Source of the DNA: Candidatus Zymogenaceae bacterium
GTDB lineage: Bacteria > Desulfobacterota > Zymogenia > Zymogenales > Zymogenaceae
NCBI GenBank assembly: GCA_016933535.1
Contig: JAFGAS010000072.1
Coordinates: 1,410 to 65,409, forward strand
Length of the DNA stretch: 64,000 nucleotides
Direction of reading: 5' to 3'
The notes beneath the pieces are model-generated. The model did not search any database. It was not told the origin of the DNA and saw nothing but the letters and a program-made list of their open reading frames with translations. The position numbers and the translations under genes were made by a program. Positions 46,274 to 50,805 of this stretch are shown one piece after another (position 1 is the first letter of the stretch; each line of letters begins with the position of its first letter).

Positions 46274-46505
46274 AGTCTTCTCCGTTTCATTACCGGTTGC
46301 CGCTCTCCGTCGGGCGTTTGGTAACCCGTACAGTATATCACAGGTCCGTATAACACTTACGTCAAAAAGAAAAACACCTCATCGCCCGTGCATCTATCTT
46401 GTTGACAATTTCTCGGCGCTGGGCTATAGTTCAAAAACTTTCGCGTACGGCTGTGAAAGGGTTTGGCCGCGCCGGGAGCTAATTCATCTTAGGTTATAGG
46501 CTGTC

Positions 46506-47159
46506 ATGGAAAAGAAAAACGAAAAAAAAGAAGTAGACCTCTTCCTTTTTGACCTTGATGGGACTCTATCGGACTCCAAGAAGGATCTGGTGACGGCAAT
46601 CAACCAAACCCTTGTCTCCTTCGGCTTTCCGGAGCTTCCCGAAGATGACATCGTGACCCTCATCGGAAAAGGAGTATCCAAGCTCCTGTCCAATTTTACC
46701 GGCGACGGCTCCGCAAAGTTCGAGACTTTTCGAGTCTACCTGGAGCACCTCGACAAGCATCTTCTTGACACCACCAAGCCGTTTCCCGGTGTTGTGGAGA
46801 CTCTTTCGTCCATTACCAAGAAGAAGGCTATAGTGACCAACAAGCTCAAGTCCATGGCCGAGCGCGTCGTTATCGGGCTGGGCATTGCCGATAAGATTGA
46901 CTTGATCGTGGGGGCCGATACCGCCAAGAGCATGAAGCCGAATCCCGAACCGATCATCTTTGCCCTCGATCGGTTTGGTGTTGACCCTTCCCGGACCGTT
47001 ATGGTGGGTGATACTACCGACGACATTATGGCGGCAAAGGCGGCCGGTGTTATTGCCTGCGGCGTTACGTATGGATTCGGAACCAGGCAGGACCTGGTGG
47101 ACGCCGGAGCCGAGATTATCATCGAGAATATCGCCGACCTCCCCGCCTATTTTCAATAA
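46506..47159 (+). CDS. HAD-superfamily hydrolase (phosphoglycolate phosphatase-like)
   Basis: Motif I FLFDLDGTLSDS, motif II VTNK and motif III GDTTDD, 217 aa. Confidence 0.85.
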   Translation: MEKKNEKKEVDLFLFDLDGTLSDSKKDLVTAINQTLVSFGFPELPEDDIVTLIGKGVSKLLSNFTGDGSAKFETFRVYLEHLDKHLLDTTKPFPGVVETLSSITKKKAIVTNKLKSMAERVVIGLGIADKIDLIVGADTAKSMKPNPEPIIFALDRFGVDPSRTVMVGDTTDDIMAAKAAGVIACGVTYGFGTRQDLVDAGAEIIIENIADLPAYFQ

Positions 47160-47173
47160 CTCTTGATTTGTTT

Positions 47174-48508
47174 ATGTACCCGCGTTATACTTCTCCCATG
47201 AGGATTACTAACCAACGTTTCGCCGTGATCTGCGCCGCCGCGGCGGCGGCGGCCCTGTTGTTTCCCGGCTGCCCGCCGAAGACGGCCGTCCCCCCCGCGT
47301 CCCGCGACTTTGTCTCCACCAGGGACCTCGCCCCCCCGAAGGACGAAATCCCGAAGATCGACAACGTCATACCGAAACCGGCCCTCGGCCGCACGCGCAT
47401 CATGGGAATTCAGGTTCTCCTCTTCACGTCGAAAACTCAAGCGGGGCTCGACGATGAGATGAAACGGATTGCCGCAACCGGCGCCGATACCGTCATCGTC
47501 CGTGTCTTCAACAACAAGATTGACAACAAGGCAGATCGGTTTTACCCCTTCATCACTCCCCGGACGGACGCGGGAGTCTATTTCAATACCGATCATGCCC
47601 CCGTCGTTTCGGACGCCCTTTCCCCCATGATCGATGCCGCCCGAAAAAACGGCCTGAAATTCTGGGCATGGATGACCACCAGATATGCGGTTTGGGGAGA
47701 CGATCCCCGGCAACTACGCGCCTATGATTTCACAAGAAAGATGATTGTTCCCGCCTTCGGCAGGGATCTCTTCGACGACCGGAAGGTCGCGGACCTCGTC
47801 GGCCTCTATCAGGACCTTGCCGCCTACGATATCGACGGCATCCTCTTCCAGGACGATCTGATCCTCAAACATAATGAGGGCATGGGGGAAACCGCCGAGC
47901 GCCTCTTCGGCTCACCCATCCGCCCCGAGACCTTCTATAACAATCCCCATCTTTCCCCGGACGGATCCAAGTACTATGCCGAGAGCTATACCGACCGATT
48001 CCGGGAATGGTCCCGCTTCAAGGCTGCCCGGCTCTCGGCGGTGGCCGGAGAGATCATCAAGGGGTCACGCGCGGTACGCCCCGATCTGAAATTCGCCGTA
48101 AACCTCTACTACGAGGCGCTGTCCAGGCCCGAGAACGGCCTCGCGTGGTTCTCCCAGGATGTCGACGAGATTTTGAAGAGCGGCGTTGACTACGTATTCA
48201 TCATGGCCTACCATCGCCAGATGATGAAGGAGAAGGGGTTTACGGACCTCGGCGCCGCCGGAAAACTGCTGACCGAGATAACCTCCCGGGCAATCCCGGC
48301 TATAGGGGATCCCGCGCGGGTCGGTATAAAGCTTCAGGTAATGGACTGGGATACCGGCAGGCCCGTCGGCCCCGAAGAGCTGAGAGTGACCGCCTCGTAT
48401 CTGAAACAGATCGATTCGGTCAGCCTTGTCTTTGTTCCATACGTCGCCGACGCCCCCTTTACCGAGATGCGGGGTATCTTTAGGACGGCAATGGGAAAAG
48501 AGAATTAG
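47174..48508 (+). CDS. putative lipoprotein with a glycoside-hydrolase-like TIM-barrel domain (PgaB C-terminal / GHL-type)
   Basis: Signal peptide with an LLFPGC lipobox. DGILFQDDL and WAWMTTRY segments resemble GH-like lipoprotein families. The family assignment is tentative. Confidence 0.45.
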   Translation: MYPRYTSPMRITNQRFAVICAAAAAAALLFPGCPPKTAVPPASRDFVSTRDLAPPKDEIPKIDNVIPKPALGRTRIMGIQVLLFTSKTQAGLDDEMKRIAATGADTVIVRVFNNKIDNKADRFYPFITPRTDAGVYFNTDHAPVVSDALSPMIDAARKNGLKFWAWMTTRYAVWGDDPRQLRAYDFTRKMIVPAFGRDLFDDRKVADLVGLYQDLAAYDIDGILFQDDLILKHNEGMGETAERLFGSPIRPETFYNNPHLSPDGSKYYAESYTDRFREWSRFKAARLSAVAGEIIKGSRAVRPDLKFAVNLYYEALSRPENGLAWFSQDVDEILKSGVDYVFIMAYHRQMMKEKGFTDLGAAGKLLTEITSRAIPAIGDPARVGIKLQVMDWDTGRPVGPEELRVTASYLKQIDSVSLVFVPYVADAPFTEMRGIFRTAMGKEN

Positions 48509-48518
48509 GTGGTGTGCG

Positions 48519-48734
48519 ATGCGTACCCTGATAATGACCAGGATTGTCCCGATCATTTTTTTGGGCCTCGGCACGACAATTGCCGTGCTCTTTTTCTTCT
48601 ATCTCTACTACTACATCCAGCTCCTGAAAAAAAAAGACGTCGCCAAGAAATATCGACTCGTCATCAATCTGATTATCGGACTGTCTCTTATTTGGTTTAT
48701 TGTGTTGGTGATCGGCATTCTGATAAATATTTAG
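48519..48734 (+). CDS. small membrane protein (hypothetical)
   Basis: 71 aa with two TM helices. The start is the ATG at 48519. Confidence 0.35.
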   Translation: MRTLIMTRIVPIIFLGLGTTIAVLFFFYLYYYIQLLKKKDVAKKYRLVINLIIGLSLIWFIVLVIGILINI

Positions 48735-48751
48735 GGGGAGAATGAATCATC

Positions 48752-49708
48752 ATGAGGAAACTCGCGATACTGGGGCTCTTTATAATACTTCTGGCCGCGC
48801 CCCTGGCAACACTGGCCGCCACCGTCACCATCGTCCATTCCTGCGACAATTACGGCGAAGTTATCCCCTGCGGGTGAGAAAACAAACGGCTGGGTGGTTT
48901 CGCCCGGCGTGCAACCGTGATCGCAGAGATTAGGAAGAGTTACCCCAATGTCCTCGTGGCCGACGCGGGAGACTTCCTGTTTCGCTCCATCCACCTCTCC
49001 TCGATAGGCGAAGAGGCCGATAAAGTCGCCGCCCGGTATGTCGTTAAGGGTATGAGCCTGGTAAAATACGACGTCGCCAACATCGGCCCCAACGATCTGG
49101 CCGCCGGCCTGGACTTCCTCCTCGATATCAAAAAGGAGGCGGCATTTACGATCATCAGCTCCAACATCGTCTCGACGAAGACGAGCACCCCGATCTTCGA
49201 AACCTCGGCGATCAAGATAGTCGGAGGGATAAAGGTCGGCTTCTTTGGAATCGCGGGCTCGGGCGCCTCCGGAGCCCACGACAGAGATACCTTCAGCTTT
49301 GCCGATCCCCAGGAGACCGGGGAAAAGATGGTCATGGAGCTCTCGAAGAAGGCGGCCGTTATCGTGGCCCTGCTGGCAATGGATCGAAAGGACGCGTACG
49401 ATTTTGCCGCGGCGGTGCCGGGAATCGACCTCATCATCACGACGAGCCAGCCCCAGCCGATTCCGGTCCCCAAACCTGTCGGCACGTCCTACATGGCCTC
49501 CGGCGATGAAAAGGGGAAACGCCTCGGCAGGACATCTATCGTCGTCGGTTCATCCCGTCCCTATATGATAACCGGGCAGGTCGTGCCGATCGGCTCCCTG
49601 ATCAATCGGGACCCCTCCCTCAATAAGCTCGAAAACGACTATTATAGATGGCTCAAGGAGTATTCCCCGGAATCCGCAGGCGACCCGCCCGATACGATGG
49701 ATGAGTAG
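48752..49708 (+). CDS. secreted calcineurin-like metallophosphoesterase / 5'-nucleotidase N-domain-like protein with an in-frame TGA at 48875-48877
   Basis: The ATG at 48752 follows GGGGGAG. The reading runs MRKLAILGLFIILLAAPLATLAATVTIVHSCDNYGEVIPCG-TGA-ENKRLGGFARRATVIAEIRKSYPNVLVADAGDF. Both sides align to the 5'-nucleotidase N-terminus (signal peptide, HTNDxHG-like segment, GGFARLA..., GD motif). The frame stays open through 49708. Confidence 0.5.
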
Positions 49709-49711
49709 CCG

Positions 49712-50314
49712 ATGACGCACCCAAAAACCGGTATTATTCTCGCGGGTGGGTCTTCCCATCGGATGGGGACCGACAAGTCGTTTCTCGATCTTGGGGGGGT
49801 ACCGATCATTGGACACGTAATCAGGGTTATGACCTCGGCATTTCCGCGCGTGCTCATCATCACCAACGATCCCGACAAGTACGCCCGGTTCGGCCTTCCG
49901 ATGAAGGCCGATATCATATCCGGCATCGGGACGCTGGGCGGTATCCACTCGGGACTAACCTATCTTAAGGACAGCGCCGCCCTTTTCGTGGCCTCGGATA
50001 TGCCCTTTATCAGGCCCGCCCTTATCGACTATCTTGTCTCAGCCTTCCACGATACCGACGCCGTCGTCCCTTATTTGAACGGAGAATACGAGCCGCTCCT
50101 GGCTATTTACGCGAGGGGGTGTCTTCCGGCGGTTGAAAAGACGATAGCCTCCCGAAAACGCCGGGTCGTCGACTTCCTGTCGGGCATTCGTCTCAGGACG
50201 ATTCGAAATGACGAGTTCTCTTTAGTGGACCCCGACTACCTGTCAATTTTTAACATCAACACGCCCGAGGACTATGAGCGGGCCAAACGAATCGTGGAGG
50301 TACGCGACCGATGA
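49712..50314 (+). CDS. mobA: molybdenum cofactor guanylyltransferase MobA
   Basis: GIILAGGSSHRMGTDKSFLDLGG N-terminal motif, 200 aa. Confidence 0.85.
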   Translation: MTHPKTGIILAGGSSHRMGTDKSFLDLGGVPIIGHVIRVMTSAFPRVLIITNDPDKYARFGLPMKADIISGIGTLGGIHSGLTYLKDSAALFVASDMPFIRPALIDYLVSAFHDTDAVVPYLNGEYEPLLAIYARGCLPAVEKTIASRKRRVVDFLSGIRLRTIRNDEFSLVDPDYLSIFNINTPEDYERAKRIVEVRDR

Positions 50315-50805
50315 TCCCCATCGTCAGCTTCGTCGGGTGGTCGGACAGCGGCAAGACCACGTATCTCGAGCGGCTTATCCCCGAGCTGACCGGGCGGGGC
50401 TATCGAGTATGCGCCGTCAAGCACGATGTCCACGGTTTTGAGATCGACACCCCGGGCAAAGACAGCTGGCGCCTCAAACGGGCCGGCGCCGCCGTAAGCG
50501 TCGTGTCGTCCCCCGCCAAGATCGCCGTAATCGCCGAGACCGATCACGATCTGACGCTTTCCGAAATCCGGGCCCGGTTCATCTCGGATGTCGATCTTAT
50601 CGTCTCGGAAGGTTTCAAGAAGGACGTCCAACCGAAGATCGAGGTCTTTCGCAAGGGGATTCGGGACGCGCTGCTGTGCACGGCGGCAGATATGCTCATC
50701 GCAGTGGCCGCCGATTGCCCTGTCCAGACCGACGTCCGTGTCATCGATCTGGACGACGTCGCGTCTATGGCGGATTTTATAGAGAAGGCAATACTAAAAG
50801 GATAG
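50311..50805 (+). CDS. mobB: molybdopterin-guanine dinucleotide biosynthesis protein MobB
   Basis: P-loop VGWSDSGKTT and the CAVKHD motif. The start overlaps the mobA stop (ATGA). Confidence 0.85.
   Translation: MIPIVSFVGWSDSGKTTYLERLIPELTGRGYRVCAVKHDVHGFEIDTPGKDSWRLKRAGAAVSVVSSPAKIAVIAETDHDLTLSEIRARFISDVDLIVSEGFKKDVQPKIEVFRKGIRDALLCTAADMLIAVAADCPVQTDVRVIDLDDVASMADFIEKAILKG

What the first reader, a model, noticed from the sequence alone, without database searches (positions are those of the whole stretch)
48752..49708. Metallophosphoesterase / 5'-nucleotidase-like gene with an in-frame TGA: selenocysteine candidate or fresh nonsense mutation
An ORF starts at 48752 with a Shine-Dalgarno sequence and a signal peptide. 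It reads straight into a TGA at 48875-48877 and continues in the same frame for another 277 codons to 49708. Sequence on both sides of the TGA aligns to the N-terminus of secreted 5'-nucleotidases (signal peptide, TVTIVHSCDNYG versus the ITVLHTNDxHG motif, then GGFARRATVIAEIRK...LVADAGDF). The context is ...IPCG-TGA-ENK.... Selenoproteins are frequent in anaerobic deltaproteobacteria, and a Cys two residues upstream could form a C-x-U redox pair. The alternative is a very recent nonsense mutation, giving a pseudogene with a downstream GTG restart at 48917. The first metal-binding motif is also degenerate (CDNYG instead of DxHG), which hints at a non-catalytic or redox role.
Basis: partly seen in the sequence, partly recalled or inferred. 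Interest (0 to 1): 0.6.

Follow-up and report, generated by a model that had tools for sequence, protein, structure and literature searches.

The report
Mis-called UshA-like selenoprotein gene (PCGU)
The in-frame TGA is almost certainly a genuine selenocysteine codon in a secreted member of the already-described "UshA-like CxU" selenoprotein family, so it is a real but mostly ordinary gene that gene callers routinely split or truncate.

Summary
In detail: ATG 48752, in-frame TGA 48875-48877, same frame open to TAG 49706-49708. The selenocysteine reading is strongly supported and the pseudogene or sequencing-error reading is rejected.

- All 12 independent orthologue DNAs (68-95% identity, different samples and technologies) keep TGA at codon 42.
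- The 41 codons upstream are under purifying selection as strong as the rest of the gene.
- Distant relatives have Cys at that column (PCGC), and two other clades have PCG-TGA.
- An 8-bp hairpin (48889-48908, loop GUUU, 19 nt between UGA and loop, -13.3 kcal/mol) meets every published bacterial SECIS criterion, and its synonymous sites are frozen.
- TGA is an ordinary stop elsewhere in the window.

The best NCBIfam hit is NF041198 "UshA_like_PCGU (seleno)protein", and the CxU family has been in the literature since 2008. This protein scores below the model's cutoff because it lacks the C-terminal multihaem cytochrome domain. It has also lost 7 of 9 UshA catalytic residues, so it is probably a periplasmic Cys-x-Sec redox protein rather than a nucleotidase.

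sel genes and tRNA-Sec are not in the window and could not be checked. Verdict: new member of a known kind, modest interest.

The parts
48752..49708 (+). Complete selenoprotein CDS: 318 aa with Sec at residue 42, plus the TAG stop. It is a secreted single-domain UshA-like PCGU protein.
   Evidence: frame; NF041198, E=1.3e-56; orthologues co-linear over the full length; dN/dS well below 1 on both sides of the TGA; confident AF2 model of the 68%-identical orthologue P0003, 5'-nucleotidase N-domain fold.
48734..48740 (+). Shine-Dalgarno sequence GGGGGAG, 11 nt before ATG 48752. It overlaps the TAG stop of the upstream 71-aa ORF.
   Evidence: Orthologues have GGAGG-type sites at the same place. 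No such site precedes GTG 48917.
48752..48817 (+). Predicted Sec-type signal peptide, residues 1-22, with likely cleavage TLA|AT. This is inferred; no predictor was run.
   Evidence: Sequence features. AF2 gives an N-terminal helix 2-14 with lower pLDDT. This segment has a higher dN/dS than codons 22-41.
48836..48856 (+). Remnant of metallophosphoesterase motif I: HSCDNYG instead of HTNDxHG. The Asp is kept, His is replaced by Tyr, and Asn by Cys31.
   Evidence: Alignment A1 and UshA ligand mapping. The motif is conserved in all orthologues apart from N33T/Y34I in L001.
48869..48877 (+). Cys40-Gly41-Sec42 (TGC GGG TGA), the C-x-U motif. TGA 48875-48877 is the selenocysteine codon.
   Evidence: TGA is present in 12 of 12 orthologue DNAs. 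The column is Cys in 51 CxC-family proteins. The codon is TGC in L019 and L020 and TGA in the other clades L017 and L018.
48889..48908 (+). Bacterial SECIS-type hairpin GCUGGGUG-GUUU-CGCCCGGC: 8 bp, 4-nt loop starting GU. The stem starts 11 nt after the UGA and 19 nt separate the UGA from the apical loop. dG is -13.3 kcal/mol. It lies within codons R46-R53.
   Evidence: fold, criteria, and 0.7% of TGA sites in the window do as well; synonymous sites vary in 2/7 hairpin codons versus 121/141 elsewhere, p=0.0016. The only stem change is U/C opposite G.
48893..48910 (+). GGFARR signature (G48 G49 R52 R53 are invariant across the CxC/CxU family). It is encoded between the TGA and the first possible restart codon.
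   Evidence: invariance; no ATG/GTG/TTG between 48878 and 48916.
48917..48919 (+). GTG (Val56), the false start used by gene callers to give the 263-aa truncated product.
   Evidence: 18 of the 19 closest database orthologues are called truncated, and 11 of them at exactly 263 aa. There is no SD upstream.
48519..48734 (+). Conserved 71-aa two-TM ORF immediately upstream (context, possibly the same operon).
   Evidence: a 71-72-aa ORF is called at this position in every contig; sequences conserved in L001, L002, L005. No family hit.
47168..48508 (+). PgaB C-terminal-like (GHL13) gene (context, conserved synteny).
   Evidence: (TIGR03938, E=3.6e-22, below cutoff) and PF14883 in the orthologous loci.
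49712..50805 (+). mobA (49712-50314) and mobB (50311-50805). mobA starts 4 nt after the Sec gene stop and the two overlap by ATGA (context, conserved synteny). mobA ends in TGA used as a true stop.

Best explanation
48752-49708 is one intact gene for a secreted selenoprotein. During translation, UGA-42 is read as selenocysteine: the mRNA hairpin at 48889-48908, 11 nt downstream, acts as a bacterial SECIS element that recruits SelB with Sec-tRNA(Sec). That step is inferred from the anatomy and was not observed. The 318-aa precursor is exported through the Sec pathway and its signal peptide is removed (inferred). What remains is a roughly 296-aa periplasmic protein with the fold of the N-terminal metallophosphatase domain of 5'-nucleotidases (shown by model and fold search). 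This scaffold has lost 7 of the 9 residues that bind the two metals and catalyse hydrolysis in UshA, so it is very unlikely to be a nucleotidase (shown by alignment). The conserved functional element is instead the Cys40-Gly-Sec42 motif, which sits on a small beta-hairpin inserted in the motif-I loop at the old active-site face. It most likely works as a selenenylsulfide/selenol redox or chalcogen-transfer centre (inferred). In relatives the same domain, with CxC or CxU, is fused to multihaem cytochrome c554-like and DsbA-like domains, which argues for periplasmic electron or thiol-disulfide chemistry. The window's clade is a cytochrome-less, stand-alone version with an extra Cys (C31) in the former metal motif. 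It belongs to the published 'UshA-like CxU' selenoprotein family. Gene callers split it into a 41-aa ORF and a 263-aa ORF.
For: (1) TGA at codon 42 in 12 of 12 independent orthologue DNAs from JGI, ENA, NCBI and Logan assemblies.
(2) dN/dS of the window versus 7 orthologues is 0.09-0.36 for codons 1-41, 0-0.19 for codons 22-41, and 0.15-0.23 for codons 43-310, with dS 0.4-2.5.
(3) The family-invariant G48, G49, R52, R53 lie between the TGA and the first possible restart codon.
(4) The TGA column is Cys in 51 CxC-family relatives. The codon is TGC in L019 and L020. It is PCG-TGA again in two other clades, L017 and L018.
(5) Best NCBIfam hit is NF041198 UshA_like_PCGU '(seleno)protein', E=1.3e-56. 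The CxU family is listed in PMC2398784, PMC9312934 and PMC13188914.
(6) The hairpin meets all four published bSECIS constraints (PMC13188914 Fig. 2 legend): loop 4 nt starting GU, stem 8 bp, spacing 19 nt, dG -13.3. Only 13 of 1895 TGA triplets in the window do as well.
(7) It appears in the MFE fold of 9 of the 10 clade sequences folded (L005 gives a shifted fold of the same segment). L017 and L018 have a different G-first-loop hairpin at 25-26 nt. The two Cys forms have none.
(8) Synonymous variation is suppressed in hairpin codons: 2/7 versus 121/141, p=0.0016, and versus the same amino acids 54/57, p=0.00014.
(9) TGA terminates 15 of 41 long ORFs, including mobA next door, whose length matches its profile.
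(10) AF2 model of P0003 has pLDDT 92 and pTM 0.90, with CGU on strand 40-42 of a hairpin. Fold matches UshA, CD73 and c4898 N-domains.
(11) Ligand loss and no Pfam Metallophos hit.
(12) Cytochrome_C554 and DsbA fusions in CxC members.
Against: No selA, selB, selD or tRNA-Sec is present in the 64-kb window or the fetched flanks, so the decoding machinery is unverified for this genome. No second selenoprotein gene was found nearby. The hairpin overlaps the strongly conserved GGFARR codons, so no double-sided compensatory change is available and part of its conservation is protein-level. The Cys-form control is only n=2. The redox function is inferred from motif conservation and domain fusions only. 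The 2008 paper explicitly lists UshA-like among the families without a recognised Cys-based redox motif, and no family member has been characterised.
Confidence: 0.9

Rival explanations
1. Recent nonsense mutation. The gene is a pseudogene, possibly rescued by re-initiation at GTG 48917 to give a cytoplasmic 263-aa fragment.
For: Gene callers everywhere produce exactly this 41-aa plus 263-aa split. No sel genes are in the window.
Against: TGA is conserved in 12 of 12 orthologues that have diverged to dS 0.4-2.5, and dN/dS is well below 1 upstream of it. The invariant GG-ARR residues lie before any restart codon. GTG 48917 has no SD. Strand beta1 (residues 23-30), which is part of the core sheet in the confident model, would be missing.
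Confidence: 0.01
2. Sequencing or assembly error at 48875 (a real TGC or TGG read as TGA).
For: Some sister MAGs are nanopore-derived and carry frameshift-split genes.
Against: The same TGA is present in Illumina JGI metagenomes, ENA and NCBI MAGs and a Logan assembly from different samples. A substitution error would not recur 12 times at one base.
Confidence: 0.005
3. UGA is read through, but not as selenocysteine. Either the lineage reassigns UGA (code 4/25), or near-cognate or programmed read-through inserts Trp, Cys or Arg.
For: JGI translated the orthologue P0003 with W at this codon. The Sec machinery was not demonstrated.
Against: TGA ends 15 of 41 long ORFs in the window, including mobA, whose length fits its HMM, so there is no reassignment. 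A conserved SECIS-type hairpin at the canonical distance with frozen synonymous sites, a strict Cys/TGA alternation at this column and a curated selenoprotein family all point to Sec. Published reviews report that Thermodesulfobacteriota (the former Deltaproteobacteria) are among the groups richest in selenoproteins (PMC13188914).
Confidence: 0.05
4. It is a selenoprotein, but the Cys/Sec residues are ligands of a new metal centre (for example C31, D32, E36, C40 and U42 binding Fe, Ni, Mo/W or Cu) rather than a selenenylsulfide redox pair. The enzyme could still be a hydrolase or a metal or chalcogen carrier.
For: D32, D74 and N138 survive from the old site. The CxC family conserves G35 (86%) and commonly has a Glu after it, as in 'GE..PCGC'. 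This clade added Cys31 exactly at a former motif-I position. The gene sits directly upstream of mobA and mobB. SoxB, the second-best model hit, is a sulfur-compound hydrolase of this fold.
Against: No direct evidence exists. D32 and D74 are not conserved across the CxC family (23/51 and 20/51). MobA and MobB act in the cytoplasm while this protein has a signal peptide. The synteny may be inherited within one lineage only.
Confidence: 0.25

Closest known systems
UshA-like CxU selenoprotein family (COG0737 'UshA-like' of Zhang & Gladyshev 2008; NCBIfam NF041198 UshA_like_PCGU)
   Same: Same N-terminal domain (E=1.3e-56 over profile positions 15-267). Same P-C-G-U motif at the same column. Sec/Cys alternation among members. 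Secreted.
   Different: It scores 192 bits against a cutoff of 275. It lacks the C-terminal multihaem cytochrome c554-like half of the model (profile positions about 346-518; no CXXCH in the protein). It carries an extra Cys31 in the former motif I. The clade is small: two 50%-identity clusters in 1.84 billion representatives.
UshA-like selenoprotein family 2 (NCBIfam NF049981, CxxU)
   Same: A short (262-position) UshA-like domain that contains a Sec.
   Different: It scores only 43.6 bits against a cutoff of 140, and the match covers only profile positions 1-92. The motif here is CxU, not CxxU.
E. coli UshA / human CD73 / T. thermophilus 5'-nucleotidase (dimetal 5'-nucleotidases)
   Same: Same fold for the N-terminal domain (Foldseek E about 1e-22, TMq 0.72-0.79). 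Shared GGxARR, DAGD and S-x-N elements. Periplasmic or secreted.
   Different: 7 of 9 metal-binding or catalytic residues are replaced (H43Y, N116P, H117N, D120A, H217A, H252S, Q254P). There is no C-terminal substrate-binding domain (PF02872) and no Pfam Metallophos hit. A CGU beta-hairpin is inserted after motif I.
SoxB thiosulfohydrolase (TIGR04486)
   Same: Second-best model hit (E=2e-19). A periplasmic member of the same fold that acts on sulfur compounds rather than nucleotides.
   Different: 69 bits against a cutoff of 550. SoxB keeps a dimanganese site and has no CxU.

Membership tests
Bacterial selenoprotein gene (Sec-UGA recoding) | In-frame UGA conserved among orthologues, with coding constraint on both sides | tested here: met
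   12 of 12 orthologue DNAs have TGA. dN/dS is 0.09-0.36 upstream and 0.15-0.23 downstream.
Bacterial selenoprotein gene (Sec-UGA recoding) | Homologues with Cys aligned to the UGA | tested here: met
   Cys in 51 CxC-family proteins. The codon is TGC in L019 and L020.
Bacterial selenoprotein gene (Sec-UGA recoding) | [quoted passage not shown] | tested here: met
   Loop GUUU, 8 bp, spacing 19 nt, -13.3 kcal/mol. Conserved with frozen synonymous sites.
Bacterial selenoprotein gene (Sec-UGA recoding) | selA, selB, selC (tRNA-Sec) and selD present in the genome | not testable with these tools
   None in the 64-kb window or the flanks of sister MAGs. The rest of the genome could not be fetched.
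Bacterial selenoprotein gene (Sec-UGA recoding) | Selenium actually incorporated in the protein | not testable with these tools
   Needs 75Se labelling or mass spectrometry.
NCBIfam NF041198 UshA_like_PCGU (equivalog) | P-C-G-[U/C] motif followed by GGxARR in a UshA-like N-domain | tested here: met
   IPCG-TGA-ENKRLGGFARR. The hit covers profile positions 15-267, E=1.3e-56.
NCBIfam NF041198 UshA_like_PCGU (equivalog) | Whole-protein score at or above the curated cutoff (275 bits) | tested here: not met
   192.3 bits. The orthologue P0003 scores 195.8.
NCBIfam NF041198 UshA_like_PCGU (equivalog) | C-terminal multihaem cytochrome c554-like domain (profile positions about 346-518) | tested here: not met
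   The protein ends at residue 318 and has no CXXCH. P0020, which has that domain, passes the cutoff.
Literature 'UshA-like' selenoprotein family (COG0737 homologue with CxU) | COG0737/UshA homology plus a CxU motif | tested here: met
   UshA and 5'-nucleotidase hits. C40-G-U42. Family definition in PMC2398784 and PMC13188914.
NCBIfam NF049981 UshA-like selenoprotein family 2 | Score >= 140 bits and a CxxU motif | tested here: not met
   43.6 bits. The motif is CxU.
Catalytic dimetal 5'-nucleotidase / calcineurin-like phosphoesterase (UshA type) | Metal ligands D41, H43, D84, N116, H217, H252, Q254 and catalytic H117/D120 (E. coli numbering; ligand roles recalled from the UshA structure literature, residue identities checked) | tested here: not met
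   Only D32 (=D41) and D74 (=D84) are retained. No Pfam Metallophos hit.
Catalytic dimetal 5'-nucleotidase / calcineurin-like phosphoesterase (UshA type) | C-terminal nucleotide-binding domain PF02872 | tested here: not met
   Absent. The protein is 318 aa and has no Pfam hit.
Catalytic dimetal 5'-nucleotidase / calcineurin-like phosphoesterase (UshA type) | N-domain alpha/beta sandwich fold | tested here: met
   AF2 pLDDT 92. Foldseek TMq 0.72-0.79 to 1ush, 3ivd and 6xue.
SoxB thiosulfohydrolase (TIGR04486) | Score >= 550 bits | tested here: not met
   69.1 bits.

The most novel reading that the evidence does not exclude
The whole CxC/CxU branch of the 5'-nucleotidase superfamily, including this stand-alone clade, may be a 'pseudo-phosphoesterase'. 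On this reading it has discarded the dimetal centre and rebuilt the active-site face around a Cys-x-Cys/Sec hairpin to do periplasmic redox or chalcogen (S/Se) chemistry. In this clade a third Cys (C31) would complete a new three-chalcogen site, and the protein would work with the co-transcribed PgaB-like, 71-aa membrane and MobA/MobB genes in an undescribed envelope pathway.
Probability: 0.15. Interest if true: 0.5.

Novelty: new member of a known kind. Interest (0 to 1): 0.3.

Why it matters
Practically, this gene and at least 18 of its 19 closest database orthologues are mis-called, as a 41-aa ORF plus a truncated ORF or with Trp at the Sec codon. The curated HMM that would rescue them misses this clade, because the model includes a cytochrome domain these proteins lack. 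About 10 of the 150 best representatives in other clades look similarly truncated.

Biologically, it adds a cytochrome-less architecture to a selenoprotein family whose function is still unknown. It also documents that the CxC/CxU branch has lost the phosphoesterase metal ligands while being repeatedly fused to haem c and DsbA-like domains. That turns 'UshA-like' from a misleading nucleotidase label into a testable redox hypothesis. It does not change any general principle of Sec decoding.

Tried and rejected
- Pfam scan of the protein gave no hit.
- Rfam at gathering threshold and ARAGORN on the whole window found nothing, so there is no tRNA-Sec.
- tblastn with E. coli SelA, SelB and SelD against the window and sister-MAG flanks gave no hits. 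This is uninformative for the genome as a whole.
- A scan for other TGA-bridged ORFs with a nearby Cys, in the window and in L001/L002/L005, found nothing convincing, so there is no independent selenoprotein to prove Sec decoding in this lineage.
The 68%-identical orthologue P0003 (W at the Sec position) was therefore used for the deep search and for AF2.
- The window's own 263-aa ORF is not on record, so the source genome could not be identified.
- P0017 and P0012 contigs were returned without DNA.
- The afdb50 fold library was unavailable.
- A covariation test of the hairpin was not attempted, because the stem lies in invariant codons. A synonymous-site test was used instead.
- Pseudogene, sequencing error, UGA reassignment and two-gene readings were considered and rejected (see rival explanations).
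- Membership in NF041198 as an equivalog, in NF049981, in SoxB, and as a catalytic UshA was considered and rejected on tested features.
Full report
**Observation.** The sequence is as described. An ATG at 48752 is preceded by GGGGGAG at 48734-48740 and opens a frame that encodes MRKLAILGLFIILLAAPLATLA|ATVTIVHSCDNYGEVIPCG. The frame then reaches TGA at 48875-48877 (codon 42) and continues for 276 sense codons to TAG at 49706-49708. The ORF listing reports two pieces, a 41-aa ORF and a 263-aa ORF starting at GTG 48917.

**What family it is.** With the TGA replaced by Cys, Pfam finds nothing. NCBIfam's best hit is NF041198 'UshA_like_PCGU, UshA-like (seleno)protein' (E=1.3e-56, 192 bits). It is followed by SoxB, UshA, CpdB and NF049981 'UshA-like (seleno)protein family 2'. 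The model's name describes the window's motif, P-C-G-TGA.

The family is in the literature as 'COG0737, UshA-like', motif CxU. It had 76 Sec forms and 92 Cys homologues in the GOS data (PMC2398784) and appears in the 2022 and 2026 reviews (PMC9312934, PMC13188914). No function is assigned.

**Is the TGA read through?** Nearly all close database orthologues are truncated calls, most at exactly the same 263 aa. One, P0003, is full length with W at the TGA position. Its DNA has TGA, so the caller used an alternative code.

I fetched DNA for orthologues from ENA and NCBI MAGs, JGI metagenomes and a Logan assembly. All 12 independent sequences that reach the position have TGA at codon 42, and the codons around it differ synonymously.

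The table gives Nei-Gojobori dN/dS between the window and seven full-length orthologues, at dS 0.4-2.5.

| Region | dN/dS |
|---|---|
| Codons 1-41 | 0.09-0.36 |
| Codons 22-41 (mature part) | 0-0.19 |
| Codons 43-310 | 0.15-0.23 |

The segment before the TGA is therefore translated and constrained like the rest of the gene.

The residues that are invariant across the whole family (G48, G49, R52, R53) lie between the TGA and GTG 48917. No ATG, GTG or TTG lies between them, so they can only be made by reading through the TGA. GTG 48917 has no Shine-Dalgarno sequence. A fresh nonsense mutation, a sequencing error and a two-gene arrangement are thereby excluded.

TGA terminates 15 of 41 long ORFs in the window. 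One is the adjacent mobA, whose length matches its HMM. UGA is therefore not reassigned genome-wide.

**Sec/Cys pair.** In alignment A1 the TGA column is Cys in the relatives HCGCH, PCGCR, PCGCH, SCGCQ and SCGCS. Among 221 collected relatives, 56 matches to the GGxARR anchor have CxC a few residues upstream, mostly CGC. In a 51-member alignment this Cys is 100% conserved.

At the DNA level two Cys forms use TGC (L019, L020). Two other clades that callers had truncated (P0025, P0046) read ...DPCG-TGA-GVPKGG(L/V)ARRAT (L017, L018). About 10 of the 150 best representatives start just after this column and are probably further uncalled Sec forms.

**SECIS.** The table compares it with the published bacterial SECIS constraints (PMC13188914, Fig. 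2 legend).

| Constraint | Published range | Window hairpin |
|---|---|---|
| Upper stem | 4-16 bp | 8 bp |
| UGA-to-loop spacing | 16-37 nt | 19 nt |
| MFE | <= -7.5 kcal/mol | -13.3 kcal/mol |

Of 1,895 TGA triplets in the window (both strands), 4.9% pass a simple bulge-free version of these criteria. Only 13 (0.7%) have an equally stable qualifying hairpin.

The hairpin is the MFE structure in 9 of the 10 clade sequences folded, and L005 gives a shifted fold of the same segment. L017 and L018 have a different 6-7 bp GC hairpin with a G-first loop 25-26 nt from the UGA. The two Cys forms do not fold into one there.

The stem lies in the invariant RLGGFAR codons, so double compensatory changes cannot be expected. 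I compared synonymous variation instead:
- Among 8 orthologues, 2 of 7 hairpin codons vary, against 121 of 141 other invariant-residue codons (Fisher p=0.0016).
- Against the same amino acids elsewhere the figure is 54 of 57 (p=0.00014).
- The two variable sites are a U/C opposite a G (U.G to C-G) and the second loop base.

This is RNA-level constraint on top of the protein-level constraint.

**What could not be shown.** No tRNA, Rfam family, selA, selB or selD is present in the window or in 20-kb flanks of three sister MAGs. No second selenoprotein gene was found nearby. The carriers are 'uncultured delta proteobacterium' MAGs. Reviews describe this group (now Thermodesulfobacteriota) as among the richest in selenoproteins (PMC13188914), but that is background, not a test.

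**What the protein is.** An AlphaFold model of P0003 (68% identical to the window protein, 72-sequence alignment) is confident, with pLDDT 92 and pTM 0.90. It matches the N-terminal domains of CD73, E. coli c4898 and UshA at TMq 0.72-0.79. No solved structure belongs to the CxC clade.

Three features set it apart from nucleotidases.
- **It is a single domain.** It has no PF02872 C-terminal domain and no CXXCH.
- **The catalytic site is gone.** Of UshA's D41, H43, D84, N116, H117, D120, H217, H252 and Q254, only the two Asp survive (D32, D74). The others are Y34, P113, N114, A117, A209, S232 and P234.
- **This loss is a property of the whole CxC/CxU branch.** H43 is kept in 7 of 51 members and N116 and H117 in none. 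C40, G41, C/U42, G48, G49, R52, R53, D71, G73 and N138 are conserved.

By topology the CGU lies on the first strand of a beta-hairpin (40-42 and 45-47). That hairpin is inserted between strand beta1 and helix alpha1, which is the motif-I loop at the old active-site face.

**Relation to the curated model.** NF041198 has 519 positions. Positions 1 to about 275 are the UshA-like domain and positions about 346-518 are a multihaem cytochrome c554-like domain. P0020, which has both, passes the 275-bit cutoff, while the window protein and its orthologue match only positions 7-268. It therefore fits the literature family (COG0737 homologue with CxU) but fails two tested features of the NF041198 equivalog. 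It also fails NF049981 (43.6 bits against 140, and CxU rather than CxxU).

The clade is small: two 50%-identity clusters among 1.84 billion representatives. It carries an extra Cys31 where canonical enzymes have the Asn of NDxH.

**Likely mechanism.** Shown here: conserved Sec-UGA, a SECIS-type hairpin, the fold, the loss of the dimetal site, and conservation of CxC/CxU. Inferred: SelB-dependent Sec insertion, Sec-pathway export with cleavage near A22, and a selenenylsulfide/selenol redox or chalcogen-transfer role for C40-G-U42.

The redox inference rests on domain fusions. Seven of the eight CxC members scanned carry Cytochrome_C554 and three carry DsbA/thioredoxin-like domains. None hits Metallophos, whereas the two non-CxC relatives in the same scan hit Metallophos plus 5_nucleotid_C. 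A metal-ligand role for Cys/Sec remains a live alternative.

**Context.** The order HAD phosphatase (46506-47159), PgaB-C-terminal-like GHL13 (47168-48508), 71-aa two-TM ORF (48519-48734), Sec gene, mobA (49712-50314), mobB (50311-50805) is conserved in all contigs of the clade, down to a 51%-identical orthologue. Gaps between genes are tiny or overlapping. A strong promoter-like site lies at 46402-46430. Whether this reflects function or shared ancestry is open.

**Verdict.** The finding is real and the selenocysteine interpretation is right. It is a new, architecturally reduced member of a known but uncharacterised selenoprotein family, and it is systematically mis-annotated. Interest is modest (0.3). 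Confidence that the TGA encodes Sec is about 0.9. Confidence in the redox (non-nucleotidase) function is about 0.5-0.6.

Noticed in passing
window 48519-48734 (+): Conserved 71-aa ORF with two predicted transmembrane helices (MRTLIMTRIVPIIFLG...) and no family hit. It sits between the PgaB-like gene and the selenoprotein gene in every orthologous contig. Its TAG stop overlaps the selenoprotein's Shine-Dalgarno sequence.
   Followed up: partly
window 46402-50805 (+): Apparent operon: HAD phosphatase, PgaB-C-terminal-like (GHL13), 71-aa ORF, selenoprotein, mobA, mobB. A strong promoter-like site lies at 46402-46430, there is a 4-nt gap before mobA, and mobA and mobB overlap by ATGA. The synteny is kept down to a 51%-identical orthologue. 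The link between a periplasmic selenoprotein and molybdenum-cofactor genes is unexplained.
   Followed up: partly
L017 431-433 and L018 1356-1358: Two other UshA-like clades, called as truncated proteins P0025 and P0046, also have PCG-TGA followed by a GC hairpin. About 10 of the 150 best representatives start just after this column, which suggests many uncalled Sec forms in public databases.
   Followed up: partly
L004 88-1047 (protein P0003): JGI's gene call translates the TGA as Trp, an alternative-code call on a 1.2-kb contig. It gives the only 'full-length' database entry for this clade, but with the wrong residue at the Sec position.
   Followed up: yes
L001 2937-4362, 6203-6848, 8498-9592: In the nanopore-derived MAG contig, several genes are split or shortened relative to L002 (pyridoxal decarboxylase 167+294 versus 474 aa; TetR 101+86 versus 214 aa; GHL13 364 versus 435 aa). 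These are probably assembly frameshifts and are unrelated to the conserved TGA.
   Followed up: no
proteins P0074, P0075, P0160 (relatives, not in the window): Very long (about 1000-1200 aa) family members combine one or two CxC UshA-like domains with DsbA-like thioredoxin and cytochrome c554-like domains. These architectures hint at periplasmic thiol/haem redox chemistry for the CxC/CxU domain.
   Followed up: partly
window 47168-48508 (+): The start of the GHL13/PgaB-like gene is uncertain. The longest ORF starts at a TTG and gives 446 aa, whereas orthologues are called at 364-435 aa.
   Followed up: no
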